Assembly (NCBI GenBank): GCA_021157895.1
Contig: JAGGVQ010000006.1
Location: forward strand, 8,393-72,392
DNA from: Dehalococcoidia bacterium
GTDB taxonomy: Bacteria > Chloroflexota > Dehalococcoidia > GIF9 > AB-539-J10
DNA: 64,000 bases
Direction: 5' to 3'
The stretch's first letter is position 1. Each line of letters opens with the position of its first letter. The notes below the pieces were generated by a model. That model saw nothing but the letters and a program-made list of their open reading frames with translations. It was not told where the DNA came from and did not search any database. The position numbers and the translations under genes were made by a program. Shown here piece by piece: positions 25,747-60,137 of the stretch.

Positions 25747-25787
25747 AGCAGGATGCTACCATGTTCATGGTAGCATCCTGCTTTTTG
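25747..25787 (+). terminator. Rho-independent terminator of the liv operon.
   Basis: A 17-bp stem (agcaggatgctaccatg / catggtagcatcctgct) followed by TTTTT. Confidence 0.8.
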
Positions 25788-45182: not shown

Positions 45183-46517
45183 ATGAGAGTTTGTATCGTA
45201 GGTGGGGGTGGGGGTGCCAGTAATGCTGTTAATGTAATTCACAATCTGGATGGTGAATCACAAATTGATGTGTTCGATAAGCGGGGGGAAATAGGTTATG
45301 AGCCATGTGAGATTCCTCAGGTATTGAATGGGTTTTTGCCTGCCTGGCAGGATATAACAGTATTCCGACCGAAATATTACCGGGACAGGAATACCACGGT
45401 GCACCTTAATACTGAGGTCACCGATATTATTCCTGGGGAAAAATGTATAGTGGCTGGCGGCCAGAGCTACGGCTACGATAAGCTTATACTGGACCTTGGC
45501 TCTGTCTCGGTTATCCCTCCTATTCCTGGGCTGGATGGCAGGAATGAATTTATGTTGGATACCAGCCTGGAGACTGCCAGGTTGTTCCAAGAGGCTGTGC
45601 CCAATTATTCTACTGCGGCTATTGTGGGTGCCGGGCAAATTGGTGTGGAGGCAGCAGCGGTGCTGAAGAGTCGGGGTTACAAAAACATATATATGCTGGC
45701 GAGGCACGGCAGCACTTTCCGAGCACAGCTAGATAAGGAGATGTCGGCAGTTATAGAGCGTAGAATAGAAGGAGAGGGAATAGAGTTGATACTGTCGTCT
45801 GATATTCAGGGCATAAGTAGTCGTGGCGACAGAAAGATTGTATCTCTCCCTGGCAGGGAGTTAGAAGTTGACCTGGTATTCTTTGCCACTGGAGCGAAGC
45901 CCAATGTGGACCTGGCGCGGAGAGCGGGCATCAGGATCGGGGAAACAGGGGCTATTGCTGTGAATACCTATTTGCAGACCAGTGAGCCTGATATTTATGC
46001 CATCGGTGATTGTATGGAGAACTGGGATAGAGTTACAGGAACAACGAGAATTTATCAAACCGCTACATCGGGAGCTACTGAGGGCAGGATAGCGGCGAAT
46101 AACTTGATGCTGGGCGATGTTTTGCCACACCAGGGCACGGTGATGACATTTATTACTGATGTCTTTGGATATGAGGTGGGGGCAGTGGGTTTCACTGAGA
46201 CCAGTGCTAAGAATCTTGGCTTTGACATTGTCTCACATGTTATGAGGACAGCAACCAGGCGGCGTTCTTATGGTGGTAAGAGAATACATATCAAGCTTGT
46301 TGCTGATCACAAGACCCAAACGTTGATGGGAGCCCAGATTATCTCACCTGAAATGGTGGCCGGTAAGCTTGATAGACTTGCCCTGGCTATTGCAGAGCGG
46401 GTACCTATCCCAGAGTTAGCCCTGATTGATACCTGTTATTCCCCAACAGTGGGATCAGCCTATGAGTCGACCGTTATGGCGCTGGACCAGCTGATGGCCA
46501 AACTCAGGGAGAAGTAG
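45183..46517 (+). CDS. FAD-dependent pyridine nucleotide-disulfide oxidoreductase (CoA-disulfide reductase/NADH oxidase-like, single active-site Cys).
   Basis: GGGGGASNA FAD motif, a PCEIP single-Cys motif and a second Rossmann fold. Confidence 0.75.
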   Translation: MRVCIVGGGGGASNAVNVIHNLDGESQIDVFDKRGEIGYEPCEIPQVLNGFLPAWQDITVFRPKYYRDRNTTVHLNTEVTDIIPGEKCIVAGGQSYGYDKLILDLGSVSVIPPIPGLDGRNEFMLDTSLETARLFQEAVPNYSTAAIVGAGQIGVEAAAVLKSRGYKNIYMLARHGSTFRAQLDKEMSAVIERRIEGEGIELILSSDIQGISSRGDRKIVSLPGRELEVDLVFFATGAKPNVDLARRAGIRIGETGAIAVNTYLQTSEPDIYAIGDCMENWDRVTGTTRIYQTATSGATEGRIAANNLMLGDVLPHQGTVMTFITDVFGYEVGAVGFTETSAKNLGFDIVSHVMRTATRRRSYGGKRIHIKLVADHKTQTLMGAQIISPEMVAGKLDRLALAIAERVPIPELALIDTCYSPTVGSAYESTVMALDQLMAKLREK

Positions 46518-46522
46518 CAGCG

Positions 46523-46816
46523 ATGAATGTAGGTGTGTGTAAATTGGAGCTACGCCTTCCTGAGAATCAATCACTTAAGGGCAAGAGGCGGGTAGTTAAG
46601 TCTATTGTTGCTCGACTGCAGAATGAATATAATGTTTCTGTAGCTGAGATTGACAACCAGGAATTGTGGCAATTAGCTACACTGGGCATTAGCTGTGTTA
46701 GTAATCACAGGATGCACGCTGATGAGATGCTGTCCCAGGCTGTGAAATATGTTGCCCGGAATTATCCTGATGTGGAGATGCTAGGCTCTGAACGTGAGGT
46801 TTTTCCCGCCCTGTGA
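46523..46816 (+). CDS. DUF503-family protein (YlxP-like).
   Basis: MNVGVCKLELRLPENQSLKGKRRVVKSI pattern; 97 aa. Confidence 0.7.
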   Translation: MNVGVCKLELRLPENQSLKGKRRVVKSIVARLQNEYNVSVAEIDNQELWQLATLGISCVSNHRMHADEMLSQAVKYVARNYPDVEMLGSEREVFPAL

Positions 46817-46819
46817 AAG

Positions 46820-49105
46820 TTGATGGACGTTGTTGCCTTCCTGCATAATCTCATCGCTTTACATAACTACAAAGACCAGATTATCCATACTGAGCATGTG
46901 CTTCCCGGAGACGCCAGTTTTGGTAAGCTGAATCGCCCACTTGCAGATGTATTGCAGACACGGTTGGATTCTTTGGGGTTGCCTCATCTTTATAGACACC
47001 AGGCGGAGGCGCTAAATGCTATTGATGCTGGCGATAATGTGATAGTGTCTACGCCCAGTGCCAGCGGCAAGAGCCTGGTGTATCAGTTGGCGACGCTGGA
47101 TGCCATGCTGTCTGATTACAATAGCTGTGCCCTGTATCTTTTTCCTACTAAAGCACTGGCTCAGGATCAGATACGTAGTTTGCAGGAAATGGCTTGTCCT
47201 GACCTGTTGCCTCTTCGTGCTATTGCTACTTTTGATGGTGATACTCCTTCTGCTCTCAGGAGTAGTATTAGAAGGCAGGCCAGAATAGTGGTGACCAACC
47301 CGGATATGCTGCACTTTGGTATTTTGCCCAACCATCAGTCATGGTCTCGATTGTTGCGCCACCTCAAGTATGTAGTGATCGATGAGGCTCATGTGTATCG
47401 TGGTGTTTTTGGTTCGCATGTGGCTAACATCCTGCGGAGGTTACAGCGTATTTGTGCTTTATATGGAGCGCATCCTCAATTTATCTGTTGTTCCGCCACT
47501 ATAGCCAATCCTCAACAGCATGCGCAGGCCCTTGTGGGATTGCCTGTTACTCCTGTTGCCCGTGACGCATCTCCCCATGGGGAAAGATATTTTGTTTTTT
47601 GGAATCCGCCCTTTATCGATGAGGCTGACAACAATAGGGCTAGCTCGAATGAGGAGGCCGCCTTTCTTCTCAGCGAGCTAGTTAAGAACGATATCCGTAG
47701 TCTGGTGTTTACCCGTACCCGCAGACTTACTGAACTTATTTATCTGTATGCTCGTAATCGATTGTCACCTTCTATGGGGCGGCTCATTGCCCCGTATCGT
47801 GCTGGATATCTTCCTGAGGAGAGAAGGGAAATTGAGCATCAGATTTTTACCGGCTCCCTGACTGGGCTGGTGGCAACAACGGCATTGGAGCTGGGAATTG
47901 ATATTGGGGATCTGGATGCTACCGTGCTCACAGGGTATCCTGGTAGCATTGCCAGCGTATGGCAGCAAGCAGGACGCAGCGGGCGCAGTGATTGTCCTGC
48001 CCTGAGCTTGCTCATCGCTGCTGATAATCCTCTGGATCAATATATCATGACTCACCCGCATTTCCTTTTTAGCGGGAATTTCGAGCGTGCCCTGATCGAT
48101 CCTGATAATCACTATATTTTAAGTGAACATTTGATCTGTGCTGCCTGGGAGAGACCGTTAACCGACAAAGACGAACAAGTTTTTGGCTCTCAGTTCCAGT
48201 CAATTGTAAGTAGTTTGGAACAAGAGGGGAGATTAAGGCAGCGACGCAAGTTGTGGTATCTATCACCAGCAACAGACTATCCTGCTCGGAATGTCAACAT
48301 CAGGTCTAGCTCGGGAAGAAATTACGCCATTATTGATATGGACAGCAACACGATAATGGAAACAGTGGAAGCCAGTGTTGCCTTTTCCCAGGTGCATCCT
48401 GGGGCTATTTACCTGCATCGTGGCGAGTCTTATATGATAACTGAGCTTGATATAGCTTCACGTGTTGCAGTGGCAACACCCAGTGCAGGGGATTACTATA
48501 CTCAGGCCAGGGAGACAACTGATCTGAGGATTGTTACTCTAAATAGGAAGAAGGAATGTCATGGGGTACAGGTGTGTTTTGGTGATGTTAATGTCACCAC
48601 CACCGTTGTCTCATTTAGTAAGAGAAAACAGTTTACTGCGGAGGTTATTGAGGAACAACCACTTGATTTGCCATCACAAAGTTTTGTTACCAAGGCCTTG
48701 TGGTTTGATCTACCGGAAGACGCGGTGCGTCTTATCGCTCAGGAAGGCCGGGATTTCTATGGTGGCATACATGCTTGTGAGCATGCTGCTATTGGTGTTT
48801 TGCCGCTGTTTGCTCTCTGCGACAGGAATGATATTGGAGGCGTCTCCACTCCCTTGCACCCTGACACGGGGAAGGCGCAGATATTCATCTACGATGCTTA
48901 TCCCGGGGGCGTTGGTATAGTTGAAAGAGGCTATGAACTGGTAGCACAGTTGTGGCAGGCTACGCTGGATGTAGTGAGTGGATGTCCTTGTTCTGACGGT
49001 TGTCCCAGGTGTATTCAATCACCAAAGTGTGGCAATAATAACCAGCCCCTGGATAAGAAGGCATCCATAATGTTGCTACGACTTCTGGTTGCCTGCCAGT
49101 GCTGA
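46820..49105 (+). CDS. DEAD/DEAH-box helicase with a C-terminal DUF1998 zinc domain (MrfA/YprA-like).
   Basis: Walker A SASGKS, a DEAH box (VIDEAH), helicase-C QQAGRSGR and a C-terminal CPCSDGCPRC...C cluster. Confidence 0.85.
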   Translation: MMDVVAFLHNLIALHNYKDQIIHTEHVLPGDASFGKLNRPLADVLQTRLDSLGLPHLYRHQAEALNAIDAGDNVIVSTPSASGKSLVYQLATLDAMLSDYNSCALYLFPTKALAQDQIRSLQEMACPDLLPLRAIATFDGDTPSALRSSIRRQARIVVTNPDMLHFGILPNHQSWSRLLRHLKYVVIDEAHVYRGVFGSHVANILRRLQRICALYGAHPQFICCSATIANPQQHAQALVGLPVTPVARDASPHGERYFVFWNPPFIDEADNNRASSNEEAAFLLSELVKNDIRSLVFTRTRRLTELIYLYARNRLSPSMGRLIAPYRAGYLPEERREIEHQIFTGSLTGLVATTALELGIDIGDLDATVLTGYPGSIASVWQQAGRSGRSDCPALSLLIAADNPLDQYIMTHPHFLFSGNFERALIDPDNHYILSEHLICAAWERPLTDKDEQVFGSQFQSIVSSLEQEGRLRQRRKLWYLSPATDYPARNVNIRSSSGRNYAIIDMDSNTIMETVEASVAFSQVHPGAIYLHRGESYMITELDIASRVAVATPSAGDYYTQARETTDLRIVTLNRKKECHGVQVCFGDVNVTTTVVSFSKRKQFTAEVIEEQPLDLPSQSFVTKALWFDLPEDAVRLIAQEGRDFYGGIHACEHAAIGVLPLFALCDRNDIGGVSTPLHPDTGKAQIFIYDAYPGGVGIVERGYELVAQLWQATLDVVSGCPCSDGCPRCIQSPKCGNNNQPLDKKASIMLLRLLVACQC

Positions 49106-49134
49106 AACTAAATGCAACAATGTTGCATTTAGTT
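49106..49134 (+). promoter_or_regulatory. Perfect 29-bp palindrome (14-1-14): AACTAAATGCAACA A TGTTGCATTTAGTT. Putative operator of the downstream Fur-family gene.
   Basis: Perfect dyad around a single-nucleotide centre, 24 nt upstream of the Fur-family start. No T-run follows, so it is unlikely to be a terminator. Confidence 0.55.
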
Positions 49135-49157
49135 GTGTCTGGTGGTATCCTCTCTTC

Positions 49158-49613
49158 ATGGTTCAAGAGGCAATGGGGGAATTGAGAGGTCAGGGATATA
49201 AGGTGACCCGGTCCCGTCGGCTGGTGATGGAAGTTCTCGATAAAGTTGATAAGCCTCTCTCTCCATATGATATACAGCGCTTGTTGCAGCAACAGGGAGA
49301 AGCTCTTAATCACGTGACTATCTACCGCACGCTTGACTTGCTGTGTCGTTTAAATTTAGCTCATCGTGTGCTGCTCAGCGGTGGATTTATTCGTTGTGCT
49401 TTAAGTCCCCAGGGAGGGTGTCATCGCTTTATGGTTTGCCGGGGGTGTGGCAGTATTCGAGAATTTATTGATGATGCCTTGTGTCACGAAGAAAGTGGAA
49501 TAACACGGACTCTTGGTTTTCATACGGAGCATCATTATTCTGAATCTTTAGGCCTTTGTTCCGATTGCTACCGTAAGCAGTTAGAGGAAGATAGTACTTA
49601 TAACCGGATGTGA
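49158..49613 (+). CDS. Fur-family metalloregulator (Fur/Zur/PerR type).
   Basis: A winged-HTH N-terminus and a C-terminal CxxC...CxxC pattern (CRGCG...CSDC). The start is taken at MVQEAMGEL; the track extension across the palindrome is rejected. Confidence 0.8.
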   Translation: MVQEAMGELRGQGYKVTRSRRLVMEVLDKVDKPLSPYDIQRLLQQQGEALNHVTIYRTLDLLCRLNLAHRVLLSGGFIRCALSPQGGCHRFMVCRGCGSIREFIDDALCHEESGITRTLGFHTEHHYSESLGLCSDCYRKQLEEDSTYNRM

Positions 49614-49623
49614 GGAATATCAG

Positions 49624-50274
49624 TTGGCGAAGAGAATACTTGAAGAGTTAGCCAGGCATGCTCCTTTTACCGGTATTGGTGCTTTGACTGGCATTATAAT
49701 CATGCTGGCAATAACTCTGGGAGGGTTTCTTCCTCAGGTTACCCCTGTTTCTCAGAATGTGTTTTATGTTTTGCACCCGACACATGTTTTCTTGAGTGCG
49801 GTAGTCACGACGGCCATGTACATGAAATATGGGAAAAGGAAGCTCTGGCTGGCAATTCTGATTGGTTTCACCGGGTCTATTGGGATTGCTACATTGAGTG
49901 ACTCTGCCATTCCTTATCTGGGGGAAACTTTGCTGGGATTACCCAACAGAGGTATTCATGTAGGATTTATTGAAAAGCCGTGGCTGACGAATCCTGCAGC
50001 AGCGATAGGCATTGTTCTGGGATATTACCAGTGGACGGCAAAATCTATCACCAAGTTTCCTCACTTTGGGCATGTGCTAATCAGTACCTGGGCCTCGTTG
50101 TTTCATGTGATCATGGCGCTGGGTTCGAGCTGGAGCTGGTTACAGATGGTGATTGTCCTTGGTTTTCTTTTTTTATCTGTCTGGATACCATGTTGTACCA
50201 GCGACATTATATATCCTCTGCTTTTCTCGCGCCGGAGATGGGATTCAGATATACTTCTAACGCACGACCTATAA
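49624..50274 (+). CDS. Uncharacterised polytopic membrane protein with several His-containing motifs (HPTH, FPHFGH). Possible metal transporter.
   Basis: About 6 TM segments, lying 10 nt downstream of the Fur-family gene. Confidence 0.5.
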   Translation: MAKRILEELARHAPFTGIGALTGIIIMLAITLGGFLPQVTPVSQNVFYVLHPTHVFLSAVVTTAMYMKYGKRKLWLAILIGFTGSIGIATLSDSAIPYLGETLLGLPNRGIHVGFIEKPWLTNPAAAIGIVLGYYQWTAKSITKFPHFGHVLISTWASLFHVIMALGSSWSWLQMVIVLGFLFLSVWIPCCTSDIIYPLLFSRRRWDSDILLTHDL

Positions 50275-59542: not shown

Positions 59543-59580
59543 CAAAGAGCCTCTAGAAATAGAGGCTCTTTGCTCCTTTT
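59543..59580. terminator. Bidirectional terminator-like hairpin with a 12-bp perfect stem (caaagagcctct / agaggctctttg) and a 6-nt loop.
   Basis: A T-rich run follows on the plus strand and a U-rich run follows on the minus strand. It lies 60 nt downstream of the usp stop. Confidence 0.6.
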
Positions 59581-59639: not shown

Positions 59640-60137
59640 TCAGCTTGTTGTTGGTACTAGCAGAACTGGCTTAACATTAGCACGTGCTACCTTTATGGCA
59701 ACACTCCCTATGTACCACTGGCTATGTCCTGAAAACCCATGGGTTGTCATTGCAATCACGTCGGCATTGACTTTATTGGCATACTCGACAATTTGCTGGG
59801 GAGCATCCCCGACTATTACCTCGGAACTTGTAGAGAAACCCATGCCTTTCAATTTATCAACTGCCTTATCAAGATATGCTGTGATTTGAGATTTGGCCTT
59901 TGAAATTTCTCTCTCGTCTCTAAAAACCGAGCCGCCAATGGTTGACTCAACGTCTACAGAAGTTGATTTAGGTGGTTTACCAGGAAAAGTGATAGGGGAA
60001 GGAATGTTGTATACTTCTGGCACTTTGCTAGGTATTACATGAAGCACCTTAATTTCCGCACCAGAAAAATTCGCCTTGAGACATGGGAAAATAGATTCAG
60101 CTAAGACCGATCCATCAAGAGGAACAAGTATTTTCAT
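59640..60137 (-). CDS. Universal stress protein (UspA family).
   Basis: A 165-aa Usp fold (KILVPLDGS...VIAMTTHG...VLLVP). Confidence 0.8.
   Translation of the reverse strand: MKILVPLDGSVLAESIFPCLKANFSGAEIKVLHVIPSKVPEVYNIPSPITFPGKPPKSTSVDVESTIGGSVFRDEREISKAKSQITAYLDKAVDKLKGMGFSTSSEVIVGDAPQQIVEYANKVNADVIAMTTHGFSGHSQWYIGSVAIKVARANVKPVLLVPTTS

What the first reader, a model, noticed from the sequence alone, without database searches (positions are those of the whole stretch)
49089..50274. Fur-family regulator with a perfect 29-bp palindromic operator and a His-rich orphan membrane protein
The sequence AACTAAATGCAACA-A-TGTTGCATTTAGTT (49106-49134) is a flawless 14-1-14 inverted repeat lying between the helicase stop and the Fur-family gene. 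Fur, Zur and PerR operators share this N-1-N architecture. However, the sequence matches none of the textbook Fur, Zur or PerR consensus boxes, so it may represent a lineage-specific operator. Ten nucleotides after the regulator sits a 216-aa six-TM protein with HPTH and FPHFGH motifs and no recognisable family. Together these would form a compact, possibly novel metal-uptake or efflux module. The ORF-track extension of the regulator to 49089 would read through its own operator and is almost certainly wrong.
Basis: partly seen in the sequence, partly recalled or inferred. Interest (0 to 1): 0.7.

Follow-up and report, generated by a model that had tools for sequence, protein, structure and literature searches.

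The report
Zur operator, regulator and unknown metal permease
The perfect palindrome is an already described type of zinc-regulator (Zur) binding site controlling a two-gene operon, and the interesting part is its second gene, which belongs to a widespread, never-characterised membrane-protein family that looks like a new kind of metal-uptake transporter.

Summary
A perfect 14-1-14 palindrome lies at 49106-49134, followed by a Fur-family gene and, 10 nt after its stop codon, a 216-aa six-helix membrane protein with no Pfam or NCBIfam family.

- **Operator.** It is not lineage-specific. Its core ATGCAAC-AAT-GTTGCAT matches the Zur site predicted in 2004 for Desulfovibrio znuABC-zur. The exact 19-bp core occurs in at least 120 metagenome contigs (27-69% GC), beside COG0523/ZigA, Zur and ZIP genes.
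- **Regulator.** It keeps the E. coli Zur sensing ligands (His, Cys, His, Glu) and lacks the Nur nickel site.
- **Promoter.** In eight related loci the right arm supplies TTGCAT, then 17 nt, TAnnAT, 6-7 nt and ATG. This suggests a leaderless, autoregulated operon starting at 49158, not 49089.
- **Membrane protein.** It is not an orphan. It has about 6,000 homologues in at least 582 bacterial and archaeal species genomes. Its only recurrent neighbours are Fur/Zur-type regulators in bacteria and canonical NikR in archaea. Distant members carry long His-rich loops.

Best reading: a Zur-repressed metal importer of a new family. Zinc is most likely here. Nickel is not excluded.

The parts
49106..49134 (.). 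Perfect 14-1-14 palindrome, read as the Zur-box operator.
   Evidence: It is conserved upstream of the orthologous regulator in L001/L009, where only the central base changes from A to T. Its core is kept in L003/L017, where the upstream gene is different.
49112..49128 (.). Core ATGCAAC-AAT-GTTGCAT. It equals the published Desulfovibrio-type Zur consensus ATGCAACnnnGTTGCAT.
   Evidence: Consensus read in PMC545781. GCAAC-AAT-GTTGC fits RNNNYxxxRNNNY. The slightly longer 19-mer occurs in at least 120 metagenome contigs beside cobW/COG0523 (15), FUR (14), Zip (3), ABC_tran (3) and TonB Plug (3) genes.
49123..49128 (+). Candidate -35 hexamer TTGCAT, lying inside the right arm of the operator.
   Evidence: In 8 class-A loci the pattern is TTGCAT, 17 nt, TAnnAT, 6-7 nt, ATG, with divergent spacer sequences. 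The E. coli-consensus scan does not flag it, because TTGCAT matches only 3 of 6 positions. This part is an inference.
49146..49151 (+). Candidate -10 hexamer TATCCT. The homologous position reads TATAAT, TATGAT, TAAAAT or TAGAAT in relatives.
   Evidence: It sits 17 nt after TTGCAT and 6 nt before ATG 49158, which suggests a leaderless transcript.
49158..49613 (+). zur-like Fur-family regulator gene (151 aa). The true start is most likely ATG 49158, not TTG 49089.
   Evidence: - PF01475, E 1.6e-17.
- The gene call in L001 starts at the homologous ATG.
- Alignment to E. coli Zur places H69, C80, C88/H89 and E102 at the site-B positions H77, C88, H96 and E111.
- These residues are invariant or at least 90% conserved in 39 subfamily members.
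- Two CxxC pairs are present (C94/C97 and C134/C137).
49612..49616 (+). Shine-Dalgarno-like GAGGA overlapping the regulator's stop codon, 7 nt before the TTG start of the membrane-protein gene.
   Evidence: Read directly from the sequence. The homologues start at the same residue.
49624..50274 (+). Gene for a 216-aa six-helix membrane protein of an uncharacterised family. It is read as a candidate Zur-repressed metal-uptake permease.
   Evidence: - No Pfam or NCBIfam match.
- 5,982 homologues, 467 clusters at 50% identity and at least 582 species genomes.
- Invariant motifs: HPxH in TM2, SD in TM3, HxxH in TM5 and CCxSD in TM6.
- The only recurrent neighbours are Fur-family regulators and NikR.

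Best explanation
The locus is a two-gene, autoregulated zinc-limitation operon of a Dehalococcoidia bacterium.

**How it most likely works**
- When loaded with metal, the Fur-family protein (a Zur-type sensor) binds as a dimer, or possibly two dimers, to the 29-bp palindrome.
- The right arm of the palindrome contains the -35 element (TTGCAT) of the operon's promoter. Binding would therefore exclude RNA polymerase and shut off both genes.
- When the metal becomes scarce the repressor leaves. A transcript that probably has no leader (ATG 6 nt after the -10 hexamer) is then made.
- The downstream gene, translationally linked through GAGGA-N7-TTG, yields a six-helix inner-membrane protein that imports the metal.

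**The membrane protein**
- It belongs to an undescribed family with a probable 3+3 inverted-repeat architecture.
- The conserved motifs HPxH/HxxH (TM2/TM5) and SD/CCxSD (TM3/TM6) would line a metal path through the membrane.
- The transported metal is most likely Zn2+ in this organism.
- The same family is placed under NikR in archaea, so a broader Zn/Ni specificity is possible.

**Shown versus inferred**
- Shown: the sequence features, their conservation, the gene neighbourhoods, and the match to a published Zur consensus.
- Inferred: DNA binding by this protein, the promoter and the leaderless start, the direction of transport, and the identity of the metal.
For: **Operator**
- It is an exact match to the Zur consensus ATGCAACnnnGTTGCAT predicted upstream of znuABC-zur in two Desulfovibrio genomes.
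- It fits the E. coli Zur dimer rule RNNNYxxxRNNNY.
- Of 128 genes flanking those copies, 15 are cobW/COG0523 (one scores 557 bits to ZigA), 14 are FUR, 3 Zip, 3 ABC_tran and 3 TonB Plug.
- The palindrome travels with the regulator gene and not with the helicase. L003/L017 have a different, divergent upstream gene but keep CAAATGCAACA-A-TGTTGCATTTG.

**Regulator**
- The E. coli Zur site-B ligand positions are occupied by H, C, C-H and E, and these are conserved in 39 relatives.
- The Nur nickel-site residues H70 and H72 are R and L here.

**Promoter**
- TTGCAT-17-TAnnAT-6/7-ATG is kept in 8 loci whose spacers differ in sequence.

**Membrane protein as the regulated target**
- A Fur-family gene lies directly upstream on the same strand in 23 of 74 non-truncated species-genome loci.
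- There are two regulator/operator classes. The second class has the box TAAATGAAAAT-N-ATTTTCATTTA and a Cys...HHHH motif.
- Extra Zur-like boxes lie 32-39 nt before the membrane gene itself in L031, L035, L046, L056, L057 and L076. A further near-consensus box lies between the regulator and the membrane gene in L209.
- Downstream neighbours are heterogeneous housekeeping genes.

**Metal transport**
- Invariant His, Asp and Cys residues sit in transmembrane helices.
- Distant members have inserted loops such as HEHGHHDSRGHTSEHGHHDGHDSGHVHEHH and His-rich tails.
- The fold is a helical membrane bundle whose closest solved match is the TRIC cation channel.

**A separate nickel/cobalt system exists**
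- One Dehalococcoidia locus also carries a cbiM-cbiQ-cbiO system and a second Fur paralogue.
Against: - In 9 archaeal loci the homologous membrane gene lies divergently next to NikR. That NikR has the canonical nickel-ligand spacing (H-11-HxH-5-C). The roughly 100-bp intergenic region carries repeats of GTTAATAA spaced 22 bp centre to centre around a TATA-like element. This points to nickel.
- No putative ligand residue differs between the Fur-linked and the NikR-linked proteins.
- One distant member is followed by a CbiQ-like gene.
- The regulator reaches only 46.8 bits against NCBIfam's Zur model (cut-off 167). It scores slightly higher against a Bacillus Fur model (68.8 bits), and in both cases far below the cut-off.
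- The promoter hexamers fail a plain sigma-70 consensus scan.
- The internal repeat is only marginal statistically (hhalign E 0.05).
- Foldseek finds no significant match among solved structures.
- In 44 of 80 loci no metal regulator is adjacent.
- No binding, transport or expression data exist.
Confidence: 0.6

Rival explanations
1. The module is for nickel (or nickel/cobalt) uptake. The membrane protein is a nickel permease in all lineages, and the Dehalococcoidia Fur-family protein senses Ni2+ through its His/Cys site while using a Zur-like box.
For: - Canonical NikR with conserved operator-like repeats lies next to the homologue in 9 archaeal loci.
- No ligand-position differences separate the NikR-linked and Fur-linked proteins.
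- The family is found in nickel-demanding anaerobes: ANME-2, Methanosarcinales, Methanolliviera and Dehalococcoidia.
- There is a formal 5/6 + 5/6 resemblance of aTGCAA-N5-TTGCAt to the Nur box tTGCaa-N5-ttGCAA.
- Nur (3eyy) is the second-best PDB sequence match.
- One member is followed by CbiQ.
Against: - The Nur nickel-site ligands are absent, and only one of the three aligned M-site histidines (H86, H88, H90) is kept.
- Exact copies of the box elsewhere flank zinc-regulon genes, not nickel genes.
- The central bases CA-N-TG are conserved, unlike Nur's non-conserved N5.
- The second regulator class has a Gram-positive-type Zur box and Zur-type residues.
- A separate CbiMQO system is present in a related genome.
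Confidence: 0.2
2. The membrane protein is not an importer. It could be a metal exporter, a membrane metalloenzyme, or a zinc-independent substitute for a zinc-requiring membrane protein that is switched on under zinc limitation.
For: - Zur regulons commonly contain zinc-sparing paralogues (established knowledge).
- Invariant His, Asp, Ser and Cys residues in a membrane could form a catalytic site.
- No transporter family is matched.
- Foldseek is silent.
Against: - Both partner regulators (Zur-type and NikR) bind DNA when metal-loaded, and the operators overlap core promoter elements. The gene would therefore be off at metal excess, which is the wrong logic for an exporter (inference).
- The motifs are duplicated in the two halves, as in pseudo-symmetric transporters.
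- Long His-rich loops in distant members resemble those of ZIP and CDF transporters.
- The closest solved fold is a cation channel.
Confidence: 0.1
3. The membrane protein is a substrate-capture (S) component of an ECF-type ABC transporter that works with a shared EcfT/EcfA module encoded elsewhere.
For: - It has six helices and about 200 residues, like S components.
- It stands alone under its own regulator, as group II S components do.
- One distant member is followed by a CbiQ-like T component.
Against: - No ATPase gene follows CbiQ in L212.
- No EcfT or EcfA genes recur beside the family in 80 loci.
Confidence: 0.05
4. The palindrome is an RNA hairpin that ends or stabilises the helicase transcript, and is not a protein-binding operator.
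For: - It starts right after the helicase stop codon.
- As RNA it folds to -27.5 kcal/mol, z = -5.1.
Against: - No T-run follows it.
- The terminator scan does not report it.
- Its core is kept upstream of the regulator where the helicase is absent.
- The same sequence recurs in unrelated phyla, usually within 300 bp upstream of a start codon.
Confidence: 0.03

Closest known systems
Desulfovibrio-type Zur box and zur/znuABC operons (Rodionov et al. 2004, PMC545781)
   Same: - The 17-bp core ATGCAACnnnGTTGCAT is identical.
- A Fur-family regulator is encoded in the same operon as the metal importer it controls.
   Different: - The importer here is not ZnuABC but a single uncharacterised membrane protein.
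- The palindrome is extended to 29 bp.
- The Desulfovibrio site is itself a computational prediction.
E. coli Zur and its operators (Gilston et al. 2014, PMC4219657; PDB 4mtd)
   Same: - Structural Cys4 site (two CxxC pairs).
- Sensing-site positions H77, C88, H96 and E111 are occupied by H, C, C-H and E.
- The operator obeys RNNNYxxxRNNNY.
- Repression works by promoter occlusion.
   Different: - The sequence match is weak (phmmer E 1.7e-11 to 4mtd; 46.8 bits against NCBIfam's Zur model, cut-off 167).
- The box sequence differs (AAATGCAACA against AAATGTTATA, the latter from memory).
- The transcript is probably leaderless.
ZIP/ZupT and CDF zinc transporters
   Same: - Zur-controlled single-polypeptide metal permeases.
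- Conserved intramembrane His and Asp residues.
- Variable His-rich loops, present in distant members of this family.
   Different: - No sequence homology. The only Pfam Zip hits are at E 3e-4 to 2e-3, lie in the His-rich loops, and fall below the cut-off.
- Six helices instead of eight.
HupE/UreJ and NiCoT nickel/cobalt permeases
   Same: - Small permeases with His-containing transmembrane signatures.
- Families whose members are assigned to a metal by their regulator (NikR or a B12 riboswitch). This point is from memory.
   Different: - No Pfam match even at E up to 5 in 39 members.
- The signature motifs differ: HPxH, HxxH, SD and CCxSD here.
Prokaryotic TRIC cation channels (PDB 5h36, 5wtr)
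   Same: - A 3+3 inverted-repeat helical bundle.
   Different: - 7-8% sequence identity.
- TRIC has a seventh helix and conducts monovalent cations.
- Foldseek does not recover the match.
- Homology is unproven.
Streptomyces Nur (nickel-sensing Fur homologue, PDB 3eyy)
   Same: - A Fur-family repressor of a metal-uptake gene.
- Its box, tTGCaa-N5-ttGCAA, superficially overlaps aTGCAA-caatg-TTGCAt.
   Different: - The nickel-site ligands are missing.
- The central bases of the box are conserved here.

Membership tests
Fur family (PF01475) | Match to the family profile above Pfam's gathering score. | tested here: met
   64.2 bits against a cut-off of 23.1, E 1.6e-17.
Zur subfamily | Structural Cys4 zinc site formed by two CxxC motifs. 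| tested here: met
   C94/C97 and C134/C137 are invariant in 39 relatives.
Zur subfamily | Sensing site that includes a cysteine (E. coli H77, C88, H96, E111). | tested here: met
   Alignment to 4mtd puts H69, C80, C88/H89 and E102 at or within one residue of these positions. They are invariant or at least 90% conserved. The E. coli ligand list was read in PMC4219657.
Zur subfamily | Operator of a recognised Zur-box type next to zinc-acquisition genes. | tested here: met
   Exact match to ATGCAACnnnGTTGCAT. Copies elsewhere flank COG0523/ZigA, Zip and Zur genes.
Zur subfamily | Score above NCBIfam's Zur equivalog cut-off. | tested here: not met
   46.8 bits against 167. That model is built for the E. 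coli-type Zur equivalog (NF008646/PRK11639), so this lowers 'orthologue of E. coli Zur' and not 'works as a Zur'.
Zur subfamily | Zinc-dependent DNA binding and zinc-dependent repression. | not testable with these tools
   Needs EMSA or footprinting and expression data.
Nur (nickel-sensing Fur homologues) | Nickel-site ligands H70, H72 and H126 (from memory; the paper's ligand list was not read here), and a 6-5-6 box with a non-conserved centre (PMC2691836). | tested here: not met
   H70 and H72 align to R and L. M-site residues H86 and H90 align to G and F. The central CA-N-TG of the box is conserved across loci.
ZIP, NiCoT, HupE/UreJ, CDF and other curated transporter families | Match to a Pfam or NCBIfam profile. 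| tested here: not met
   The window protein has no hit. None of these families is hit by any of 39 members at E up to 5.
TRIC channel fold | 3+3 inverted repeat plus a seventh helix, with significant structural superposition. | tested here: inconclusive
   [not shown]
ECF-transporter S component | S-component fold and dependence on an EcfT/EcfA module. | tested here: not met
   [not shown]
NikR (regulator next to the archaeal homologues) | RHH and NikR_C domains with the high-affinity nickel ligands (E. coli H76, H87, H89, C95). | tested here: met
   PF08753 and PF01402 hits. The spacing KH-(11)-HSH-(5)-C is present in all 9 sequences. The E. coli residue numbering is from memory.

The most novel reading that the evidence does not exclude
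The 216-aa protein founds a new family of transition-metal uptake permeases or channels.
- It would have a TRIC-like 3+3 inverted-repeat fold and an intramembrane His4/Asp2/Cys2 site.
- The family is exchanged between bacteria and archaea of anoxic sediments.
- It has been wired independently into zinc (Zur, at least two regulator/operator classes) and nickel (NikR) regulons.
- It would therefore be either a dual Zn/Ni importer, or a case where regulators and not the permease define which metal is managed.
Probability: 0.45. Interest if true: 0.7.

Novelty: new variant of a known kind. Interest (0 to 1): 0.55.

Why it matters
**What is ordinary.** Zur-controlled zinc uptake is a well-known kind of system, and this operator type was already predicted in 2004. 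That half of the finding is ordinary.

**What is not ordinary.** The transporter is the unusual part.
- It is a compact family conserved at 55-70% identity across domains.
- It is present in at least 582 species genomes of Dehalococcoidia, ANME/Methanosarcinales, Thermoplasmatota, Aminicenantes, Omnitrophota and others.
- It is absent from Pfam and NCBIfam and is annotated only as hypothetical.
- Its only conserved partners are metal-sensing repressors.

**What would follow if it is an importer.**
- It would fill a gap in how uncultured anaerobes in sulfidic sediments obtain zinc and/or nickel, where both metals are scarce. These metals are needed for hydrogenases, CODH/ACS and F430 enzymes.
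- It would give annotators a name for thousands of hypothetical proteins.
- The Zur-versus-NikR split offers a natural experiment on whether metal specificity lies in the permease or in its regulator.

Tried and rejected
- **Nur-like nickel sensor.** I considered this because the box resembles tTGCaa-N5-ttGCAA and 3eyy is the second-best PDB hit. I rejected it after the residue-level alignment.
- **Lineage-specific operator.** Rejected by the metagenome scan and the literature.
- **Regulon search within the window.** No further sites were found.
- **afdb50 fold search.** The library was unavailable.
- **Foldseek against the PDB.** Nothing significant.
- **Internal-repeat test by hhalign.** Only E 0.05.
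- **Weak Pfam hits across 39 members.** Only DUF2678 below its cut-off. No transporter family appeared.
- **Specificity-determining residues between NikR-linked and Fur-linked members.** None at ligand positions.
- **Upstream regions of ANME-2 members.** No recognisable Zur or NikR site.
- **Simple sigma-70 scan.** It does not see the promoter that I infer.
- **Contexts of the distant His-rich members.** The contigs were too short to say much beyond another Zur-like regulator with a box (L209) and a lone CbiQ (L212).


Full report
**1. Observation**

The sequence AACTAAATGCAACA-A-TGTTGCATTTAGTT is at 49106-49134. It begins one base after the TGA (49103-49105) of a 761-aa DEAH/MrfA-type helicase (TIGR03817, 898 bits). 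It is one of only three perfect inverted repeats of 13 nt or more with a short loop in the 64-kb window. The 19-bp core allowing three mismatches is expected 0.04 times in shuffles and occurs once.

The next ORF is a Fur-family protein (PF01475, E 1.6e-17). Ten nucleotides after its stop, a TTG preceded by GAGGA opens a 216-aa ORF. That ORF carries HPTH and FPHFGH and has no Pfam or NCBIfam match.

**2. The operator is a known Zur-box type**

Orthologous loci keep the palindrome.
- L001, L002 and L009 are 93-94% identical at the protein level and show the same synteny. Only the central base differs (A to T).
- In a Chloroflexota genome (L003/L017) the regulator is 59% identical and the upstream gene is a different, divergent peptidase. 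The core CAAATGCAACA-A-TGTTGCATTTG is nevertheless retained.
- The element therefore belongs to the regulator gene and not to the helicase.

Rodionov et al. 2004 predicted a Zur site with consensus ATGCAACNNNGTTGCAT upstream of znuABC-zur in Desulfovibrio vulgaris and D. desulfuricans (PMC545781). Window positions 49112-49128 match it perfectly. GCAAC-AAT-GTTGC also fits the structure-based E. coli Zur dimer motif RNNNYxxxRNNNY (PMC4219657).

I took the 128 ORFs that point away from these sites. Among them, 15 are cobW/COG0523 (14 with CobW_C; one scores 557 bits to the zinc chaperone ZigA). A further 14 are FUR, 3 Zip, 3 ABC_tran and 3 TonB Plug. This is a zinc-limitation regulon signature.

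**3. The regulator looks like a Zur, not a Nur**

PDB sequence matches are all weak: a Fur at 8e-15, Nur 3eyy at 2e-12 and E. coli Zur 4mtd at 2e-11. NCBIfam places it below every equivalog cut-off.

At residue level:
- The E. coli Zur sensing ligands H77, C88, H96 and E111 align with H69, C80, C88-H89 and E102.
- Both CxxC pairs are present.
- In 39 subfamily members C80, C88, H89, C94, C97, E102, C134 and C137 are invariant, and H69 is at least 90% conserved.
- Nur's nickel-site residues H70 and H72 align with R and L. Its M-site residues H86 and H90 align with G and F.

**4. Promoter and start codon**

In eight class-A loci (window, L009, L017, L010, L155, L181, L107 and L159) the right arm of the palindrome supplies TTGCAT. 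This is followed by 17 nt of unrelated sequence. Next comes TATCCT, TATGAT, TATAAT, TAAAAT or TAGAAT, then 6-7 nt, and finally the ATG of the regulator.

I infer the following:
- a -35 element inside the operator, so that repression works by occlusion;
- a -10 element at 49146-49151;
- a leaderless mRNA starting at or next to ATG 49158.

A plain E. coli consensus scan does not flag this promoter, because TTGCAT matches TTGACA at only 3 of 6 positions. This remains an inference from conservation.

The terminator alternative is weak. The hairpin is stable as RNA (-27.5 kcal/mol), but there is no T-run and the element is independent of the helicase.

**5. The membrane protein is a member of a large uncharacterised family**

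It has 5,982 homologues at E of 1e-3 or better, all named hypothetical. A profile search of 1.84 billion cluster representatives finds 467 clusters. A scan of one genome per species finds at least 582 genomes. These include Dehalococcoidia, Methanolliviera, ANME-2/Methanosarcinales, Thermoplasmatota, Latescibacterota, Aminicenantes, Omnitrophota, Planctomycetota and Desulfobacterota. Identities across domains are 55-70%.

Conservation and topology:
- Residues conserved in at least 97% of sequences include E8, H12, H51, P52, H54, S92, D93, H147, H150, C190, C191, S193 and D194.
- The two halves carry matching motifs. LHPTHVFLS corresponds to PHFGHVLIS, and ATLSDSAIPYL corresponds to CCTSDIIYPLL. 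hhalign aligns them exactly this way, but only at E 0.05.
- Loop charges (GKRK and a C-terminal RRR) suggest that both termini are inside and that the topology is a 3+3 inverted repeat. This is my reading.

Structure:
- AlphaFold2 gives a six-helix bundle with pLDDT 83 and pTM 0.80.
- Foldseek finds nothing significant.
- No Pfam transporter family is touched by any of 39 members, even at E up to 5.

Distant members (P0267, P0313, P0334 and P0369) keep HPxH, SD, HxxH and CCxSD. They have also acquired very long His/Asp/Glu-rich loops and His-rich tails, as ZIP and CDF transporters do. These loops account for the weak, sub-threshold Zip hits.

**6. Neighbourhoods say 'metal-regulated'**

Of 80 species-genome loci, 6 are truncated upstream.
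- *Fur-linked.* In 23 loci a Fur-family gene lies directly upstream on the same strand.
- *NikR-linked.* In 7 loci, plus L006 and L008, a divergent NikR is adjacent.
- *Neither.* In 44 loci neither regulator is adjacent.

No other family recurs upstream, and downstream genes are assorted housekeeping genes.

The Fur-linked loci fall into two classes.
- *Class A.* The regulator is 57-93% identical to the window's and uses the box described above.
- *Class B.* The regulator is 28-38% identical and has a Cys...HHHH motif as in Gram-positive and actinobacterial Zur. Its box is TAAATGAAAAT-N-ATTTTCATTTA. That box is close to the Gram-positive Zur consensus and to the Geobacter site quoted.

Several loci, including Planctomycetia and Omnitrophota genomes, have an additional box 32-39 nt before the membrane gene itself. 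A His-rich distant member (L209) has a near-consensus class-A box right after a TATAAT. Two unrelated Zur lineages therefore both target this gene.

**7. The nickel complication**

In Thermoplasmatota and Methanolliviera the homologue is divergent from a NikR. That NikR has the canonical ligand spacing. The roughly 100-bp intergenic region is strongly conserved. It carries (G/A)TTAATAA(C/T) three times, and two of these copies lie 22 bp apart around a TATA-like TTATATAA. This geometry is like that of known NikR sites, GTGTTAC-N13/14-GTAACAC.

No putative ligand residue distinguishes the NikR-linked from the Fur-linked proteins. Either the permease carries both metals, or one regulator class is not what its family suggests.

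One Dehalococcoidia locus (L024) carries a separate cbiM-cbiQ-cbiO system and a second Fur paralogue close to the zur-permease pair. This mildly favours zinc for the pair.

**8. Direction of transport (inference)**

Zur and NikR both bind DNA when metal-loaded. Both operators sit on core promoter elements. The gene should therefore be on only when the metal is scarce. This is importer logic.

**9. Verdict**

- The regulator and operator half is an ordinary, already described kind of system.
- The membrane protein is a credible new family of metal importer. Zinc is most likely in this genome, and nickel or dual specificity remains open.
- Confidence in the whole model is 0.6. For the operator being a Zur-type site it is about 0.85, for uptake about 0.65, and for zinc specifically about 0.5.
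- Interest is 0.55.

Noticed in passing
window 25747-25782: A perfect 17-2-17 inverted repeat (AGCAGGATGCTACCATG/CATGGTAGCATCCTGCT) followed directly by TTTTT. It looks like an ordinary intrinsic terminator.
   Followed up: partly
window 59543-59572: A perfect 13-4-13 inverted repeat (CAAAGAGCCTCTA/TAGAGGCTCTTTG). It lies in a region with two further imperfect palindromes at 59667-59749.
   Followed up: no
L089-L208 (metagenome contigs carrying AATGCAACANTGTTGCATT): Besides COG0523, Zur and ZIP genes, the box is flanked by 11 MerC-family genes (PF03203) and 11 Pyr_redox_2 genes. It is also flanked by a roughly 186-aa family with no Pfam match (for example L089:2341-2898, with about 10 relatives at 51-61% identity). 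These may be unrecognised members of Zur regulons.
   Followed up: partly
L092:547-1005 (- strand): The gene next to an exact Zur box is a distant relative of 'metal-independent carbonic anhydrase' (NF047901, 98 bits, well below the cut-off). This would fit zinc sparing.
   Followed up: no
L008 3909-4000; L016, L033, L036, L042, L044, L045, L061 (NikR to permease intergenic regions): The roughly 100-bp intergenic region is almost identical across different Thermoplasmatota genomes. It carries three copies of (G/A)TTAATAA(C/T). This is a candidate archaeal NikR operator.
   Followed up: partly
L024 7667-10797: A Dehalococcoidia locus has a second Fur paralogue and a cbiM-cbiQ-cbiO operon within 4 kb of the zur-permease pair. 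The operon is preceded by a CarboxypepD_reg-like gene. L011 and L012 also show a second Fur gene about 2 kb downstream.
   Followed up: partly
P0241; P0267, P0313, P0334, P0369: One family member is fused to a SAM-methyltransferase domain. Four others carry long His/Asp-rich insertions and His tails.
   Followed up: partly
L212 272-2223; L214 980-1060: A distant His-rich member is followed by a lone CbiQ-like gene with no ATPase gene after it. It is preceded by GTTATTAAT repeats that resemble the archaeal NikR-type boxes.
   Followed up: partly
window 45183-49105: The upstream block is a pyridine-nucleotide disulfide oxidoreductase, then DUF503, then an MrfA/DECH-type helicase. It is syntenic in L001/L002 but not in the more distant L003. 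It is therefore unrelated to the metal module.
   Followed up: partly
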